From: Escherichia phage vB_EcoS_UALMA_PCEc3 | Length of the DNA: 44,679 nt | Sequence record: PQ314493 | Strand: one strand, 5' to 3' | Part shown: piece by piece, positions 24,300 through 29,909 of the stretch | Numbering within the stretch: position 1 is the first letter of the stretch | How the letters are laid out: every line of letters starts with the position of its first letter | Notes under the pieces: generated by a model | What the model was told of the DNA's origin: nothing | What the model saw: the letters and a program-made list of their open reading frames with translations, nothing else | Databases searched by the model: none | Position numbers and translations under genes: made by a program

Positions 24300-24530
24300 A
24301 CATTAAAATATCTATATATATCAACCTTTTACTCTTATTATTATTATTATATATATTATTATGTATATCGTGTAACTACTTCTATAGAGTGTTCCGGTTA
24401 TAATTTTAATATCATGTGGATTTATACAGTATATAGCAACCAACATAGCAACGCACCATCCGCAATAAATGATATACACGATATACACGATGGTTACATT
24501 GAGCTATAGCTGGGCTTGGATGCCAAGAAG
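24300..24530. repeat. AT-rich intergenic repeat region A (TTA-repeat tract, GTTACGC-type iterons, AGCTATAGCT palindrome)
   Basis: shares ~40-nt and ~30-nt blocks with region 42660-42885. Confidence 0.5.
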
Positions 24531-24869: not shown

Positions 24870-25835
24870 ATGAGCTTTACTGTTTACACACGAGAAGAAC
24901 TATCAAACTCTGAGTACCACTCTGAGACTGATCACATCTCCGGTAGCTCGCTTGTCGAGATTATCCATGGTTCGCCAGCTAAGTGGAAATTCAAACAGCG
25001 CAATAATGATAGTAAGGCTCTTAAATTTGGCACGCTGTCACATACTTACATCCTAGAAGGTGACATGTTTGATAAAGAATTCCTTCGAGCCACAGACCTT
25101 GACGCGATTGAAGGCTTAATTACAAGCCAGACCGGATTATCGGCAGCGCTGAAAAAAGTTGGCGTTGCTGGCACGTCTGGGAAGGGCTATAGCGAACTTG
25201 TAGAGATGATGTATCGCTCCGGTGAGGATTGGCCTGTTAAGTGGCTAATTGAACAGCAGGAGAGTGCTCAGGCGCTTGTGGAGGGTAGGGAGCTAGTTAG
25301 CGCGGCAGACTATGACAAAGTGGTGGCGATGCGTGAGGTTCTTTGTAATATTCCAGCATATAATGCAATAGTGAACAGCGAGACAGCGCAGAAAGAGCTA
25401 TCAATCTTTGGTGAGATTCTCGGCGTCGGCGTGAAGATTCGAATTGACCACGTTGATGTTGTTGATGGTGTGGTGTGTATTACCGATCTGAAAACGACAG
25501 CCAGCGCATCACCTCAGGAGTTTGGGAGACTTGCATTCAAGCATGGGTATCTTGCAAAAATGGCTCTACAGCACGATGTTTTTGTTATGGCTTTTAATGA
25601 AAAAAGAAAAACAAAAGTAAGGCTACTTGCAATCGAGAAAGAGGAGCCTTACCTACCAATGCTTTACAGCATTACAGAAGAGCAACTGAAGGTTGGTCGC
25701 AGAATGTATTTAGAGGCGCTTGCCACTTACAAAAAGTGCAAAGAGAATGATGTGTGGCCCGGTTATGCAATGGGCGCAACAGAGATCGACCTAGATGTTC
25801 CTGAGTGGGATATGAGGAAGTATAAAGAAATTTAA
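24870..25835 (+). CDS. PD-(D/E)XK recombination exonuclease (RecE/YqaJ-like, putative)
   Basis: nuclease-like D...ITDLKT motif; adjacent to Erf-like and SSB genes. Confidence 0.55.
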   Translation: MSFTVYTREELSNSEYHSETDHISGSSLVEIIHGSPAKWKFKQRNNDSKALKFGTLSHTYILEGDMFDKEFLRATDLDAIEGLITSQTGLSAALKKVGVAGTSGKGYSELVEMMYRSGEDWPVKWLIEQQESAQALVEGRELVSAADYDKVVAMREVLCNIPAYNAIVNSETAQKELSIFGEILGVGVKIRIDHVDVVDGVVCITDLKTTASASPQEFGRLAFKHGYLAKMALQHDVFVMAFNEKRKTKVRLLAIEKEEPYLPMLYSITEEQLKVGRRMYLEALATYKKCKENDVWPGYAMGATEIDLDVPEWDMRKYKEI

Positions 25836-25908: not shown

Positions 25909-26559
25909 ATGCAAATTTCAGAATCATGCAAATCAATTTTAAACGCGCTACACACTGCCAAGTCGCTATTTGCGAAGGCTGAAAAGTCGAAGCAGAACTC
26001 GCACCTTAAGAATAAATACGCCACCCTAGAGGATGTTTTGGCTGCCGTTGAGCCTGGACTGGATGAGTGCGGGCTGGTGATGTTCCAGAGTGTGCTTGAT
26101 GACGAACAAACAAACCGCATGAAGGTTGAGACAAAGCTGTTCCATGCGGAGTCGGGCGAATGGGTTAGCTTCTTAATGATTGTCCCAATCAGCAAGAATG
26201 ATGCTCAGGGTTACGGCTCAGCTTTAACATACGCTCGACGTTATGGAATCACGGCGGCATTAGGACTTAGCCAGGCAGATGATGATGGCAATCTGGCAGC
26301 TAAGGGTGTTAAAGACTTCAAGCGAGAACTTGAGAAGTGCAATACGCTCGATGAGCTTCGCAATGTCTGGAAAGAAGCTAAGCAGTCACTCGACGCGGCA
26401 GGGTGGAAGGTCTTTGAGCCTCACATTATCGAGCGCAAGGCGGAGATTGAAGCAAATGCGATGACTGGCTTCAACCCGGCAACACCAAAGAAAGTTGCAG
26501 AAAAAAGTAGTCCTGAAGAAAAGATTGAAGTAGAATCACAACAAATCGACACATTCTAA
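25909..26559 (+). CDS. Erf-like single-strand annealing protein (putative)
   Basis: N-terminal segment KNKYATLEDVLAAV resembles ERF family; context between exonuclease and SSB. Confidence 0.5.
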   Translation: MQISESCKSILNALHTAKSLFAKAEKSKQNSHLKNKYATLEDVLAAVEPGLDECGLVMFQSVLDDEQTNRMKVETKLFHAESGEWVSFLMIVPISKNDAQGYGSALTYARRYGITAALGLSQADDDGNLAAKGVKDFKRELEKCNTLDELRNVWKEAKQSLDAAGWKVFEPHIIERKAEIEANAMTGFNPATPKKVAEKSSPEEKIEVESQQIDTF

Positions 26560-26601: not shown

Positions 26602-27030
26602 ATGCACGTAATTACTGGTCAGATTCGCCGCGCTCCGTTCACTAAAGAAGGCGCAAACGCCAATGGTACATGGAAAATGTTTGCGGTTGACTTAAGTGAA
26701 CGATACAAGGATAAAGATGGGCAAAATCAGTACACCAACTATCGTGCCGTTTTTTTCGCTAAAGAGTCAATGCTAGATTGGTACAATGAGGCATTTCAAG
26801 AAGGTAAAGTTGTTAGCGTTAGTGCTGAAAGCATTGCTGTAGATGTTCGAGATAAAGATGGCAAGACTTATGTGACTATCAACATGAATAACCCTAGGCT
26901 TGAATTTAGTCAGCGTGGTGATGCGGCACCACAACAGAAGCAAAGACAACAACAGCAAGCCCAGCAACAGCAGCGTCAACAACAGCAACCTCAGCAGCAA
27001 CAGAACTTCGAGGACGACATTCCCTTCTAA
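26602..27030 (+). CDS. ssb: single-stranded DNA-binding protein
   Basis: OB-fold-sized N-terminal domain, Gln-rich linker, acidic C-terminal tail ending DDIPF. Confidence 0.8.
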   Translation: MHVITGQIRRAPFTKEGANANGTWKMFAVDLSERYKDKDGQNQYTNYRAVFFAKESMLDWYNEAFQEGKVVSVSAESIAVDVRDKDGKTYVTINMNNPRLEFSQRGDAAPQQKQRQQQQAQQQQRQQQQPQQQQNFEDDIPF

Positions 27031-27060
27031 AGAAAAGGCCCCTTTCGGGGCCTTTTTTAT
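27031..27060. terminator. bidirectional rho-independent terminator
   Basis: hairpin aggcccctttcggggcct flanked by A-run and T-run; convergent genes on both sides. Confidence 0.7.
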
Positions 27061-29867
27061 GAAGCTGTATTTACCTGAAGATATGCACCATTAGTTGCAC
27101 CAAACCATGCGTAAGCAGATCCGTAAGTTGTTGGGTTATCATTTAAGATGAAGTCACCCGCTCTAATTACGCACTTTTCTCCATATTTATCAGTTGGCCT
27201 TGCACTAAAACCATAATCAACATATCTAAAACCAACCTTCGTTACGTTATCGTTAAGAGGAAAAATATCCGAGAAGCTAGAAGCCCTAAAGTCATTGTTC
27301 CTGAAAATTCCTCCTGTAAAGTTATCCATATCAAACATTGTGGTTAAACTTGAAGCAACAGTATTCATGAACTTGTTGCCTTCATATGTCGGAGCTACTA
27401 CTTCATAGCCAACTCTTAGCTGAACAAATCCCCCATCAATAATATTGTCCTTGACTATTGGATATTGCCCGCCGATTGCTAAGCCACCAAACCCAGGTGT
27501 AAATTTGCAACTATTATTACTAAATATAGTGCCAACCCACGCCTGATTTGTAAGGTATGGTGCCTTAGTATCTGTCATGGTGTTCCCGGTGATAATCAAT
27601 CCATTCTTGGCCTGAATTCCCTCCTGGTAGCCCTGAATCGCTACGCCGCCACCAATCATAATGTTGCTGGATATAATAATGTTGCTCAACCCCTCATTAA
27701 CACCCCAATCACTTTCTGCATCATTTGTTATCAGTAAGTAGTGAGAAGAAGCCCTGCCAGTAGCGTCTGTAGTTATGATGCTTGTATTCCCTTTGCATAT
27801 AACATTGTTTGCCGCAAAAACCTCAACAAATATACCAGAGCCTTCGTAGTAGTTATCAGTAACCGTTACGTTATTGCCAGCCGGGGTTATCCTTGACTGG
27901 ATAGATATTGGATAATAGAACTTGTTGGCGTGAGCGTAAGACCTTCGGCTTCTCTCGGATATTGCATAATCCTCCGCGAAAGTATGCCATGCCCTTCCTG
28001 ACTGTTTTGTTGTGTTTCCTATAAACTCTGAGTAGTCACAGTTTCTTGTGATTAAGCAGTAGTTAGCGTTGTATCTGAAGCTTGAATTTCTAAGAGATAC
28101 GAATGCATTAGGTAAGCCATTAAGAGCATCGGCATTAACAAAGGCCCTCGAGGCATTAACCTCCATACCCTCGATCACAACTGATGCGCATCCTTCAACC
28201 ATAAAACCAAACCAGTCTTCTCTTGGTTTATGCTCTGTATCCGTTGGTTGGATTGAGTAATCTGAAAAGTCAGTATTCCAGTTGAGTCCGCTAGCTTTAA
28301 ATGTGCAACCTTTAAGCCCGAAAACAACCCTCTCTGGTGATGTGCTTCCAGAGATATCAATATCAACATCATTATTGGCAAAAATGTCAACAGTAAGTCC
28401 ATTGAGGAAGAATGCCGTTTGCCTTAACACTCTGTACTTATCATTGTACTGAACACCATCGGAGAATGAGACTTTCAGTCTTCCAGCGCTAATTCTTACC
28501 TTCCTGTTTGTATTGTGACCAAGGTTTATACATGCCATAACCGAGGCGTTTGATTCATTAACTCCAGACACATCATGACCAGCCCATTCGGTATGGATAT
28601 CATCAACACCTCCCGTAAACCTAACCCAGCAACCATTTTCACCTGGTGATGTCTCACCCGCTCCGCTAAGGAAGTCTGAAAGAGTGGAATATGTACCATC
28701 AAATGGAACCGTTGGGCTAAAAACAGTAATCCCGTTATGTTCGCTCTTACTTACTAATGGACTCCAGTAGAACAGACCGCCACCAGAGTTTGATCCAGAA
28801 ATGTAAGACCTTACATTTGCTAAATTTTTATTCTCATTTGTTTGTTTGATTAGTTCGTAAATTGAATCAACTGAAGATAGTCCTAAATTACTCCTGGCAA
28901 GGCTTTTATCCGCAACATCAGAGAAATTCAATGATTTTTGAAAAGTCTCATTTTTTGAGTAAACATCAAGTAAACCTCTTACTCGCTGGGCGTTAGCGCC
29001 TCCAGCTTCATTTCCGCCAGGCAAGTAGATTGACTCTCTAACATAGTATTTCCTAACACCACCGGAAGTATTGTAACTGATGTGATAACGTCTAAAGCTG
29101 CCATCGATACCGGTGTAGGTTGACACTTGAATATTTCTTGATCCAGTCCCAGTTGCTCCGCCCTCTACAGATATAACAAGCGTAGCATTGCTTGGTACTT
29201 TTAATGCTTCTGGTGCATTTGTGCAAGCAGAGAAAGCAACCCTATAATGACCGCCAACAACAAAATTAAAAGTTTGGAAATCAAGTTCACTTAAAATATT
29301 GCTACCATTACCGATACCCCAACCAGAAAGTGTAACTAGTGTTCCAGCATCACCAGCACTATTAATTGCCTCAATAGTAGCATCTCTCGCTGATGTGGTT
29401 GTATCTCTTGCACTAACGGCAGTAGCTGCGCTCTCTGCGGCAGCAATCTGGCTAGCTAAAGCATCCGCTGCACCTTGCACTGACTGGCTTGCCAATTGCT
29501 CAAAGCGAGGCCAATCAAAAGAATCCTGACCAATGAAATCAATCAGGCTCTGAATGCTAGTTTCCCTACTCTGATAATAACGAAGTGTCTCCGCTACATT
29601 TTGAGCCAAACCCTGAACGCTAATCCCATCATGAGCAAGAATGGCATATCCAGTACCAGCAGGAACAGTTTCGCCATTTGGGTTATATACAGACAATGAA
29701 GTGTCGCTGGTGATTTCAGAGATAGTGTAAATCTGTACTGGCTCTGTTTTGAATACAATTGTAGCACCAACGCGAATAAGTGTTAGTGGCATGGTCCATT
29801 GAGTGCCAACTCCAGTAACCTGACCGTTCGCTGCTAAACTGGCAGTGCCAGTATCATAAATTGCCAT
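27057..29867 (-). CDS. tail fiber / tailspike-like protein with beta-helix-like repeats
   Basis: track ORF 27057..29897; probable ATG 29867 after RBS ggag; Asn/Gly-rich repeats suggest parallel beta-helix (inference). Confidence 0.6.
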   Translation of the reverse strand: MAIYDTGTASLAANGQVTGVGTQWTMPLTLIRVGATIVFKTEPVQIYTISEITSDTSLSVYNPNGETVPAGTGYAILAHDGISVQGLAQNVAETLRYYQSRETSIQSLIDFIGQDSFDWPRFEQLASQSVQGAADALASQIAAAESAATAVSARDTTTSARDATIEAINSAGDAGTLVTLSGWGIGNGSNILSELDFQTFNFVVGGHYRVAFSACTNAPEALKVPSNATLVISVEGGATGTGSRNIQVSTYTGIDGSFRRYHISYNTSGGVRKYYVRESIYLPGGNEAGGANAQRVRGLLDVYSKNETFQKSLNFSDVADKSLARSNLGLSSVDSIYELIKQTNENKNLANVRSYISGSNSGGGLFYWSPLVSKSEHNGITVFSPTVPFDGTYSTLSDFLSGAGETSPGENGCWVRFTGGVDDIHTEWAGHDVSGVNESNASVMACINLGHNTNRKVRISAGRLKVSFSDGVQYNDKYRVLRQTAFFLNGLTVDIFANNDVDIDISGSTSPERVVFGLKGCTFKASGLNWNTDFSDYSIQPTDTEHKPREDWFGFMVEGCASVVIEGMEVNASRAFVNADALNGLPNAFVSLRNSSFRYNANYCLITRNCDYSEFIGNTTKQSGRAWHTFAEDYAISERSRRSYAHANKFYYPISIQSRITPAGNNVTVTDNYYEGSGIFVEVFAANNVICKGNTSIITTDATGRASSHYLLITNDAESDWGVNEGLSNIIISSNIMIGGGVAIQGYQEGIQAKNGLIITGNTMTDTKAPYLTNQAWVGTIFSNNSCKFTPGFGGLAIGGQYPIVKDNIIDGGFVQLRVGYEVVAPTYEGNKFMNTVASSLTTMFDMDNFTGGIFRNNDFRASSFSDIFPLNDNVTKVGFRYVDYGFSARPTDKYGEKCVIRAGDFILNDNPTTYGSAYAWFGATNGAYLQVNTAS

Positions 29868-29888
29868 TGTGTAAAGTCTCCATTTGTA

Positions 29889-29909
29889 AAGTAGCACTAA
29901 TTGCTAAAG
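29889..29909. promoter_or_regulatory. palindromic box copy between primase terminator and tail fiber start
   Basis: aagtagcactaattgctaaag; only ~25 nt from tail fiber ATG in minus sense. Confidence 0.45.

What the first reader, a model, noticed from the sequence alone, without database searches (positions are those of the whole stretch)
26926..27000. Gln-rich (CAA/CAG)n tract in the SSB linker
The SSB linker is encoded by a run of CAA/CAG/CGT codons (QQKQRQQQQAQQQQRQQQQPQQQQ), a short coding microsatellite that could be prone to slippage and length variation; it also generates the spurious antisense poly-Leu ORF 26773..27000.
Basis: seen in the sequence. Interest (0 to 1): 0.2.

Follow-up and report, generated by a model that had tools for sequence, protein, structure and literature searches.

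The report
Glutamine-rich flexible linker of phage SSB

Summary
Observation confirmed. ORF 26602..27030 (+, 142 aa) carries 19 Gln in 24 residues (nt 26932..27003), the strongest single-residue bias in the genome. The window is the whole published genome of Pseudomonas phage PsgS01F, an Rtp-like siphophage, where this gene is already annotated as SSB.

The length-variation prediction holds between related phages. In about 155 relatives of at least 82% identity the OB domain has a fixed length, while the linker spans 16-35 residues and stays 50-74% Gln. Indels are in frame, 1-13 codons long, and some lie in or beside short repeats.

It is not a true microsatellite. CAA and CAG are interleaved, the longest perfect repeat is 9 nt, and 43 near-identical isolates and four independent metagenome contigs of a relative show no length change.

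The antisense poly-Leu ORF is a by-product, because its open length is not conserved. Verdict: ordinary, already-known kind of feature, low interest.

The parts
26602..27030 (+). ssb gene, 142 aa plus TAA stop. It is annotated 'single strand DNA binding protein' (WYA87440.1) in PP134917.1.
   Evidence: ORF; GenBank annotation; PHROG_44 SSB E=1.6e-30; family profile against solved SSBs E=3.3e-24.
26602..26916 (+). OB-fold ssDNA-binding domain, aa 1-105.
26917..27006 (+). Intrinsically disordered linker, aa 106-135 (GDAAP-Q tract-N).
Evidence: It is hypervariable in length (16-35 aa) and sequence among close relatives but always 50-74% Gln.
26932..27003 (+). Gln tract QQKQRQQQQAQQQQRQQQQPQQQQ, 19 Q in 24 residues, encoded by 10 CAA and 9 CAG. 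This is the finding itself.
26947..27003 (+). Imperfect 30-nt (10-codon) internal duplication, QQQQAQQQQR / QQQQPQQQQ(N).
   Evidence: TRF period 30, 1.9 copies, 85% matches. The lag-10-codon self-match of 76% gives codon-shuffle p=0.012.
27007..27027 (+). Acidic C-terminal tip FEDDIPF (SSB-Ct type protein-docking motif), followed by the TAA stop at 27028-27030.
   Evidence: Read directly from the sequence. F136, I140, P141 and F142 are invariant in 64 relatives. The ...DFDDDIPF ending is shared with E. coli SSB and most family representatives.
27031..27058 (.). GC-rich hairpin flanked by A and T runs, between the convergent ssb and tail-fibre genes. It is a likely bidirectional intrinsic terminator.
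   Evidence: RNA fold gives -19.6 kcal/mol, z=-4.2, with 0 of 200 shuffles folding as well. Terminators are annotated at the homologous place in EC3a and SU57. The simple pattern scanner missed it.
26773..27000 (-). Antisense poly-Leu ORF (75 aa, TTG start). It is a mirror image of the CAA/CAG codons and is not a gene.
   Evidence: Listed. The open antisense frame varies from 30 to 140 codons among relatives and is cut to 36 codons in L013 despite near-identical linker DNA.
25909..26559 (+). ERF-family single-strand annealing protein, immediately upstream. Context: the recombination module partner of the SSB.
   Evidence: Pfam PF04404 E=8e-28; annotation.
24870..25835 (+). PD-(D/E)XK exonuclease (DUF3799, annotated 'exonuclease VIII'). 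Context: the same module.
   Evidence: Pfam PF12684 E=3e-24; annotation.

Best explanation
The tract encodes the glutamine-rich, intrinsically disordered linker of the phage's own SSB. The protein has the canonical three-part SSB layout. An N-terminal OB-fold domain (aa 1-105) binds ssDNA. A roughly 30-residue unstructured spacer follows (aa 106-135, 63% Gln, broken about every fifth residue by K, R, A or P). A conserved acidic tip, FEDDIPF, recruits partner proteins. The gene closes an exonuclease-ERF-SSB recombination module. By analogy with E. coli SSB and phage HK620 SSB (inferred, not shown here), the spacer holds the tip away from the DNA-bound core so that it can reach partners. Those partners would be the phage ERF annealing protein and host replication or repair proteins that read the same tip. 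Through weak Gln/Pro-mediated contacts the spacer may also contribute to cooperative binding or condensation. Only disorder, Gln-rich composition and approximate length are under constraint, so the exact sequence and length drift. In-frame indels of 1-13 codons arise by slippage or unequal pairing among the short, imperfect CAA/CAG repeats and by local duplications of 18-30 nt. Whole linker-plus-tip blocks also appear to move between co-infecting relatives by recombination. The antisense poly-Leu ORF is an automatic by-product, because CAA and CAG read backwards as TTG and CTG.

For: Disorder: no secondary structure and low pLDDT over residues 106-142.

Tip: F136, I140, P141 and F142 are invariant.

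Module context: PDDEXK exonuclease and ERF lie upstream, and synteny is conserved in relatives.

Drift under compositional constraint: the linker is 16-35 aa and 50-74% Q, with the OB domain fixed in length. 76% of protein pairs with identical OB domains differ in linker length. More distant representatives (25-58% identity) also have Q/P/G-rich linkers, several with the E. coli-like GGWGQPQQPQ and NEPPMDFDDDIPF motifs.

Indel mechanisms: a CAGCAG indel at 26934 against L013; a perfect 18-nt tandem duplication in vB_EcoS-12210I (p=0.001); the window's own 30-nt repeat; a 13-residue deletion in P0124 relative to P0001, which share an identical OB domain, with similar QQQ(Q)R stretches at both ends of the missing segment.

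Mosaicism: against L013 the OB domain differs at about 15% of nt, but 26926-27305 differs at only 2.4%.

Literature: SSB linker length and composition are not conserved while disorder is; the linker drives condensation and the tip is conserved (PMC7584906). The E. coli linker is dominated by Q and G, and its length and composition matter for condensation (PMC12143593). Annealing proteins read the last 6-7 residues of SSB (10.1101/2020.04.14.041095; PMC5928155).
Against: The protein itself does not reach any Pfam SSB model, and phmmer against PDB sequences finds nothing, so homology is remote. With the tail removed and only close family representatives used, hhalign against the E. coli OB domain gives only 51% probability, E=1.5e-4. 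Profile A2 contains some canonical SSBs and the shared tip, which inflates. No biochemical function of the linker was tested or can be tested here. Cooperativity, condensation and partner recruitment are analogies to E. coli and HK620 SSBs. The protein database is non-redundant, so pairs with identical OB domains must differ somewhere else, which biases upward. Slippage and recombination as the source of individual indels cannot be separated without a phylogeny.
Confidence: 0.85

Rival explanations
1. The tract is a genuine hypermutable coding microsatellite (a contingency-type locus). Frequent slippage would generate linker-length variants within a phage population, giving rapidly selectable SSB variants.
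For: Linker length differs in most pairs of relatives, even those with identical OB domains. Some differences are whole-codon changes inside pure CAG runs: a CAGCAG indel against L013, and CAG runs of 6 versus 4 in Rtp versus IME253.
Against: In this allele the same Gln codon never occurs more than twice in a row, and the longest perfect repeat is 9 nt. The 43 near-identical vB_EcoS isolates give identical matches of 424 nt at 83.4% identity. Four contigs from independent samples have identical linker DNA. P0002 and P0003 differ from P0001 by point substitutions, not by length. Only one candidate frameshifted product was seen among about 160 (P0162). Linkers use CAA more than the genome does (46% against 32%, Fisher p=4e-4, sequences not independent), and this interleaving breaks repeat purity.
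Confidence: 0.08
2. Linker diversity is driven by positive, diversifying selection, for example to evade host defence systems that sense phage SSBs or to retune partner choice, rather than by relaxed constraint.
For: The linker is the most divergent part of the gene against the closest genome, EC3a: 17 mismatches per 50 nt against about 4-13 in the OB domain. Defence systems that sense phage SSBs exist, for example Retron-Eco8 (PMC13402713).
Against: In the one studied case, sensing needs the OB fold and not the C-terminal tail (PMC13402713). Composition is tightly kept (50-74% Q) while the sequence is scrambled, which is the signature of a compositionally constrained disordered region. The same pattern is general for bacterial SSB linkers (PMC7584906). 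No test for positive selection is possible on an unalignable low-complexity region.
Confidence: 0.05
3. The antisense poly-Leu ORF 26773..27000 is a real gene for a small hydrophobic or membrane peptide, and the Gln tract is constrained by it.
For: There is an open 75-codon frame with a strongly hydrophobic N-terminus.
Against: It has only a TTG 'start', created by any CAA codon. The open length varies from 30 to 140 codons among relatives and stops after 36 codons in L013, whose linker DNA is nearly identical. The sense frame is under strong purifying selection, with about 85% nt but 85-92% aa identity. The only promoter-like match on the minus strand lies downstream of the ORF start and is no more than shuffles give. 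The ORF is not annotated in PP134917.1.
Confidence: 0.01
4. The length differences are assembly or sequencing artefacts in low-complexity DNA.
For: Many relatives come from short-read metagenome assemblies. One product looks frameshifted (P0162).
Against: Essentially all variants are in frame and keep the tip. Finished genomes of cultured phages (Rtp, EC3a, IME253, Sd1, vB_EcoS-12210I) differ in the same way. Identical alleles recur in independent samples. The tract of at most about 100 nt is shorter than a read.
Confidence: 0.02

Closest known systems
E. coli SSB and other bacterial homotetrameric SSBs (OB fold + intrinsically disordered linker + SSB-Ct tip ...DFDDDIPF)
   Same: Same three-part layout. 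The OB domain is homologous. The linker is disordered, Gln-rich and non-conserved. The last five residues, DDIPF, are identical to the end of E. coli's DFDDDIPF (alignment). The known property that linker length and composition vary while disorder and the tip are conserved (PMC7584906) is exactly what is seen here.
   Different: The linker is about half as long: 30 aa against 56 aa in E. coli (PMC12143593). It is much richer in Gln (63%) and has no Gly-rich segments, no aromatic residue and no GGWGQPQQPQ motif. The OB domain is too diverged to pass Pfam PF00436. It is encoded by a lytic phage next to ERF and an exonuclease. The oligomeric state is unknown.
SSBs of Rtp-like / T1-like E. coli phages (Rtp, vB_EcoS_CEB_EC3a, IME253, Sd1, JulesPiccard and others; PHROG_44)
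   Same: These are direct orthologues at 81-85% nt identity, in the same genomic position between ERF and the tail-fibre gene, with a Gln-rich linker and IPF tip in all.
   Different: Each has its own linker sequence and length (135-146 aa proteins). The window's allele is nearest to metagenomic P0001. The record names a Pseudomonas syringae host, whereas all relatives are from E. coli or Shigella.
Phage HK620 SSB working with its neighbouring annealing protein Sak4 (PMC5928155), and RecT/Red-beta recognition of the SSB C-terminal 7 residues (10.1101/2020.04.14.041095)
   Same: A phage-encoded SSB sits next to a single-strand annealing protein and has a host-like acidic C-terminal tip, which in those systems is required to stimulate annealing or recombineering.
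   Different: The partner here is an ERF-family protein, not Sak4 or RecT. No interaction was tested. Those papers do not address the linker.
Poly-glutamine / CAG-repeat coding microsatellites (e.g. eukaryotic polyQ tracts)
   Same: Gln run encoded by CAG/CAA, with in-frame length polymorphism among relatives.
   Different: The tract is interrupted every 4-5 residues and uses mixed codons. The longest pure repeat is 3 units. There is no evidence of high-frequency instability.

Membership tests
Bacterial/phage OB-fold SSB family (PHROG_44; Pfam PF00436 clan) | N-terminal OB-fold ssDNA-binding domain homologous to SSB | tested here: met
Bacterial/phage OB-fold SSB family (PHROG_44; Pfam PF00436 clan) | Passes the curated Pfam SSB model (PF00436) on its own | tested here: not met
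   There is no SSB hit even at E up to 1. Only 12 of 73 family representatives match PF00436. The protein is a diverged subfamily, linked by profile and by fold rather than by the Pfam threshold.
Bacterial/phage OB-fold SSB family (PHROG_44; Pfam PF00436 clan) | Intrinsically disordered, compositionally biased linker after the OB domain | tested here: met
   Residues 106-135 have no secondary structure and pLDDT about 55-60, or below 50. The linker is 63% Gln, and its length and sequence are not conserved.
Bacterial/phage OB-fold SSB family (PHROG_44; Pfam PF00436 clan) | Conserved acidic C-terminal tip ending in (D/E)-D-I-P-F at the very C-terminus | tested here: met
   FEDDIPF is followed by TAA. 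F136, I140, P141 and F142 are invariant in 64 relatives.
Bacterial/phage OB-fold SSB family (PHROG_44; Pfam PF00436 clan) | ssDNA binding, oligomerisation (dimer or tetramer) and partner recruitment through the tip | not testable with these tools
   This needs purified protein (EMSA, SEC-MALS, peptide pull-downs).
Coding microsatellite / contingency (phase-variable) locus | Perfect or near-perfect tandem array of a 1-6 nt unit, typically 5 or more units | tested here: not met
   The longest perfect tandem repeat is 9 nt (3 units). CAA and CAG are interleaved and the tract is broken by 5 non-Gln codons.
Coding microsatellite / contingency (phase-variable) locus | Length polymorphism among related genomes | tested here: met
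   The linker is 16-35 aa in about 155 relatives, and length varies within 90%-identity clusters, where members are 129-145 aa.
Coding microsatellite / contingency (phase-variable) locus | High-frequency change among near-identical isolates or within populations | tested here: not met
   Forty-three vB_EcoS isolates give identical matches, and four independent contigs of P0001 are identical in the linker. No sister isolates of PsgS01F itself exist in the collection, which holds only one record at 99% identity or above, so the test is indirect.
Condensate-forming (LLPS-driving) Gln/Gly/Pro-rich SSB linker, as in E. coli SSB | Low-complexity Gln/Pro-rich disordered region on an oligomeric scaffold | tested here: inconclusive
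   Composition and disorder fit. The aromatic and Gly residues considered important in E. coli (PMC12143593) are absent, and the oligomeric state is unknown.
Condensate-forming (LLPS-driving) Gln/Gly/Pro-rich SSB linker, as in E. coli SSB | Demonstrated droplet formation dependent on the linker | not testable with these tools
   This needs in vitro microscopy or turbidity assays with linker variants.

The most novel reading that the evidence does not exclude
The Gln-coding tract together with the invariant tip and terminator may serve as a shared recombination 'landing pad' at the edge of the tail-fibre (host-range) cassette of Rtp-like phages. Every relative carries CAA/CAG-rich DNA, a conserved ...GA(C/T)GA(C/T)AT(T/C)CC(N)TT(C/T) tip and a terminator directly abutting the 3' end of the convergent tail-fibre gene. 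Exchanges that start in the linker could therefore swap the fibre's C-terminal receptor-binding end between co-infecting phages. Linker scrambling would then be partly a scar of those exchanges. A second non-excluded reading is that the unusually Gln-dense, Gly- and aromatic-free linker gives the phage SSB condensation properties distinct from, and immiscible with, the host SSB.
Probability: 0.12. Interest if true: 0.45.

Novelty: already known. Interest (0 to 1): 0.1.

Why it matters
It matters little beyond annotation quality. The result shows that the poly-Leu antisense ORF should not be called as a gene. It shows that the ssb call in PP134917.1 is sound even though Pfam does not hit. It also shows that Rtp-like phage SSBs follow the general SSB rule: conserved OB fold, conserved docking tip, and a disordered linker of free length and sequence but kept composition. 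The natural series of linkers from 16 to 35 residues on an almost invariant OB domain could serve as a ready-made allelic panel. It could be used to ask how linker length and Gln density affect SSB cooperativity, condensation and annealing-protein recruitment.

Tried and rejected
1. A direct Pfam scan of the protein gave no SSB hit, only sub-threshold noise.
2. phmmer of the protein against PDB sequences gave only chance hits at E of 0.09 or above, some against other Gln-rich proteins.
4. The strict hhalign of close family representatives against the E. coli OB domain alone is only marginal (51%, E=1.5e-4). I therefore do not lean on sequence alone.
5. The IMG/VR scan gave only 11 loci.
6. The terminator pattern scanner found nothing at 27031-27058, because the A/T runs pair and use up the T tail. 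Folding shows the hairpin.
7. Retron-Eco8 sensing of phage SSB was considered as a driver of linker diversity. The paper shows dependence on the OB fold and not on the tail, and it concerns the unrelated T7 gp2.5, so I dropped it to a low-probability rival.
8. 'The linker is a recombination junction' is seen against L013 but not against EC3a, where the junction lies at the end of ssb. I kept it only as the speculative reading.
9. Internal repeats beyond chance were found in only 2 of 11 alleles, so 'built from tandem duplications' is not general.
10. No paper mentions PsgS01F.

Full report
**What is there**

Window 26602..27030 (+) is a 142-codon ORF ending ...SQRGDAAPQQKQRQQQQAQQQQRQQQQPQQQQNFEDDIPF*. 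The Gln tract is aa 111-134, nt 26932..27003.

The tract has 19 Gln in 24 residues, encoded by 10 CAA and 9 CAG, interrupted by AAG, AGA, GCC, CGT and CCT. Against a genome-wide Gln frequency of 3.8% this gives P of about 3e-23 per window. It is the most extreme single-residue bias in any long open frame of the genome, apart from its own antisense poly-Leu image.

The antisense ORF 26773..27000 (75 aa, poly-Leu) exists as described.

**Where it comes from**

The window is the complete genome, reverse-complemented, of Pseudomonas phage PsgS01F (PP134917.1, 44,679 bp). This ORF is annotated there as 'single strand DNA binding protein'. It is flanked upstream by a PD-(D/E)XK exonuclease and an ERF annealing protein. 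Downstream lies a convergent tail-fibre gene.

The nearest cultured relatives are Rtp-like E. coli and Shigella siphophages. EC3a is 93.4% identical over 96% of the first 25 kb. The ssb genes of relatives are 81-85% identical at the nucleotide level.

**Is it an SSB?**

The protein does not hit Pfam SSB or any PDB sequence by phmmer. It does match PHROG_44 (SSB) at E=1.6e-30.

An exhaustive HMMER search of 1.84 billion cluster representatives found 128 family representatives. Most end in ...D(D/E)IPF, and several carry E. coli-like GGWGQPQQPQ and NEPPMDFDDDIPF motifs.

- A profile of 73 representatives hits 36 solved SSB sequences, best E=3.3e-24.
- The same profile aligns to E. coli SSB residues 7-103 at 99.3% probability.
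- Twelve of the 73 pass Pfam SSB.
- A stricter profile without the tail gives only 51% probability, E=1.5e-4, over the same columns. Sequence homology of the OB domain is therefore remote.

The layout is therefore OB domain (1-105), disordered linker (106-135), acidic tip FEDDIPF (136-142).

**Does linker length vary?**

Yes, between related phages.

- The best 120 database homologues (82-90% identity) are 135-156 aa long.
- Members of single 90%-identity clusters range from 129 to 145 aa.
- In 155 sequences parsed by the flanking motifs, the OB domain has the same length in 154. The linker ranges from 16 to 35 residues, averages 64% Gln (range 50-74%), and has longest pure-Q runs of 3-11.
- F136, I140, P141 and F142 are invariant.
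- Among protein pairs with identical OB domains, 76% differ in linker length, and this fraction hardly rises with OB divergence. There is a caveat. The database is non-redundant, so such pairs must differ somewhere.
- The closest cultured genome, EC3a, has a different linker (DGGGQQRQQQRHQPQQPQQQQQQQPKQQQN; 143 aa protein). Against EC3a the linker is the most divergent part of the gene, at 17 mismatches per 50 nt.

**Is it a slippage-prone microsatellite?**

Only weakly.

- The longest perfect tandem repeat in the window's tract is 9 nt. The same Gln codon never occurs more than twice in a row.
- Linkers across 11 distinct alleles use CAA 46% of the time against 32% genome-wide. Fisher p=4e-4, with non-independent sequences. 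This interleaving lowers repeat purity.
- The 43 near-identical vB_EcoS isolates return identical matches (424 nt, 83.4%).
- Four contigs of the relative P0001 from independent samples have identical linker DNA.
- P0002 and P0003 differ from P0001 by point substitutions only.

There is thus no sign of isolate-level instability. No sister isolates of PsgS01F itself are available, since only one record is 99% identical or more.

On longer timescales several mechanisms are visible:

- a CAGCAG indel at 26934 against L013;
- CAG runs of 6 versus 4 in Rtp versus IME253;
- a perfect 18-nt tandem duplication in vB_EcoS-12210I (codon-shuffle p=0.001);
- the window's own 30-nt imperfect duplication at 26947-27003 (TRF 85% matches; p=0.012);
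- a 13-residue deletion in P0124 relative to P0001, with similar QQQ(Q)R stretches at both ends of the missing segment.

Recombination also contributes. Against L013 the OB domain differs at about 15% of sites, but 26926-27305 (linker, tip, terminator and fibre 3' end) differs at only 2.4%. Against EC3a the high-identity block begins only at the end of ssb. The linker is therefore not a consistent junction.

**The antisense ORF**

CAA and CAG read backwards as TTG and CTG, so any Gln tract yields a Leu tract and TTG pseudo-starts. The open antisense frame is 30-140 codons long in relatives. It is cut to 36 codons in L013 by a single sense-strand Ser codon (TCA), although the linker DNA is nearly identical. 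The ORF is unannotated in the GenBank record. The only minus-strand promoter-like match lies downstream of its start and is within shuffle expectation. It is spurious.

**How it most likely works**

This part is inferred from established SSB biology. In E. coli SSB the disordered linker's length and composition are not conserved across bacteria, while disorder and the tip are. Linker-linker contacts promote condensation and cooperativity, and the tip docks many partner proteins (PMC7584906; PMC12143593).

Phage annealing proteins use the last 6-7 residues of SSB (PMC5928155; 10.1101/2020.04.14.041095). The latter paper also notes that E. coli and P. aeruginosa SSBs share an identical 7-residue tip. 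A DDIPF tip is therefore compatible with either claimed host.

Here the Gln-rich spacer would tether FEDDIPF to the DNA-bound OB core so that it can reach the adjacent module's ERF protein and host factors. It may also add weak multivalent contacts. None of this is shown for this protein.

**Comparison and novelty**

The feature is the ordinary linker of an already annotated SSB. Its length polymorphism is the known behaviour of SSB linkers. The particulars are a short, very Gln-dense linker free of Gly and aromatic residues, and a natural 16-35-residue allelic series on a near-invariant OB domain. These are mildly useful but not surprising. Interest is low.

Noticed in passing
L011 gene (phiEB49-like; locus positions 1501-1962); proteins P0058, P0161, P0165, P0216, P0263. 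Not present in the window, where the stop codon at 27028-27030 directly follows IPF.: Several relatives of this SSB carry a conserved extension of about 15 residues after the supposedly C-terminal ...DDIPF tip, for example DDIPF-APIGLQYGMSNIYVL, -ATYGLQYGKHRIYAI and -APFGLQYSSHAIHSL (motif AP.GLQ[YH]...). Docking of the SSB tip is understood to need the free C-terminal Phe carboxylate, so an extension should mask it or replace it with a second motif. The recurrence argues against random read-through.
   Followed up: partly
Whole window (PP134917.1): The record names Pseudomonas syringae pv. garcae (coffee leaves, Brazil) as host. The genome is nevertheless a typical Rtp-like coliphage, 93.4% identical over 96% of its first 25 kb to Escherichia phage vB_EcoS_CEB_EC3a. 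Nearly all of the 182 related records are from Enterobacteriaceae hosts, mostly Escherichia and Shigella. Either this is an unusual host jump or the host assignment needs checking.
   Followed up: partly
Window 26926..27305 compared with L013 (metagenome contig ERR10896003_872): This is a mosaic block. About 380 bp spanning the ssb linker, tip, terminator and the 3' end of the tail-fibre gene differ at 2.4% from L013, while the flanks on both sides differ at about 15%. ECH1 shares 27029..27305 at 98.6%. The 3' end of the fibre gene and the terminator seem to be exchanged among these phages.
   Followed up: partly
Window 27031..27058: A perfect 12-bp hairpin (AAAAGGCCCC-TTTC-GGGGCCTTTT, -19.6 kcal/mol, z=-4.2) lies between the convergent ssb and tail-fibre genes and is a likely bidirectional terminator. 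The consensus scanner missed it because the T run pairs with the A run.
   Followed up: yes
Window 27057..29897 (-): the ORF listing gives a 946-aa tail-fibre ORF from a GTG start, whereas GenBank annotates a shorter CDS (2811 nt, 936 aa) for the same gene. The relative L013 has 939 aa. The true start codon is uncertain.
   Followed up: no
Proteins P0162 (127 aa) and P0141 (90 aa), relatives from metagenomes: Two relatives end prematurely with out-of-frame residues. In P0162 the break is inside the linker (...QRQQQQHQVCIINE). These could be rare frameshift alleles that lose the tip, or they could be assembly errors or contig ends.
   Followed up: no
Window 24309..24410, both strands: An AT-rich stretch gives Tyr/Ile-rich open frames (YLYISTFYSYYYYYIYYYVY). 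It lies in the region of small hypothetical genes upstream of the exonuclease gene, and it aligns poorly with L013.
   Followed up: no
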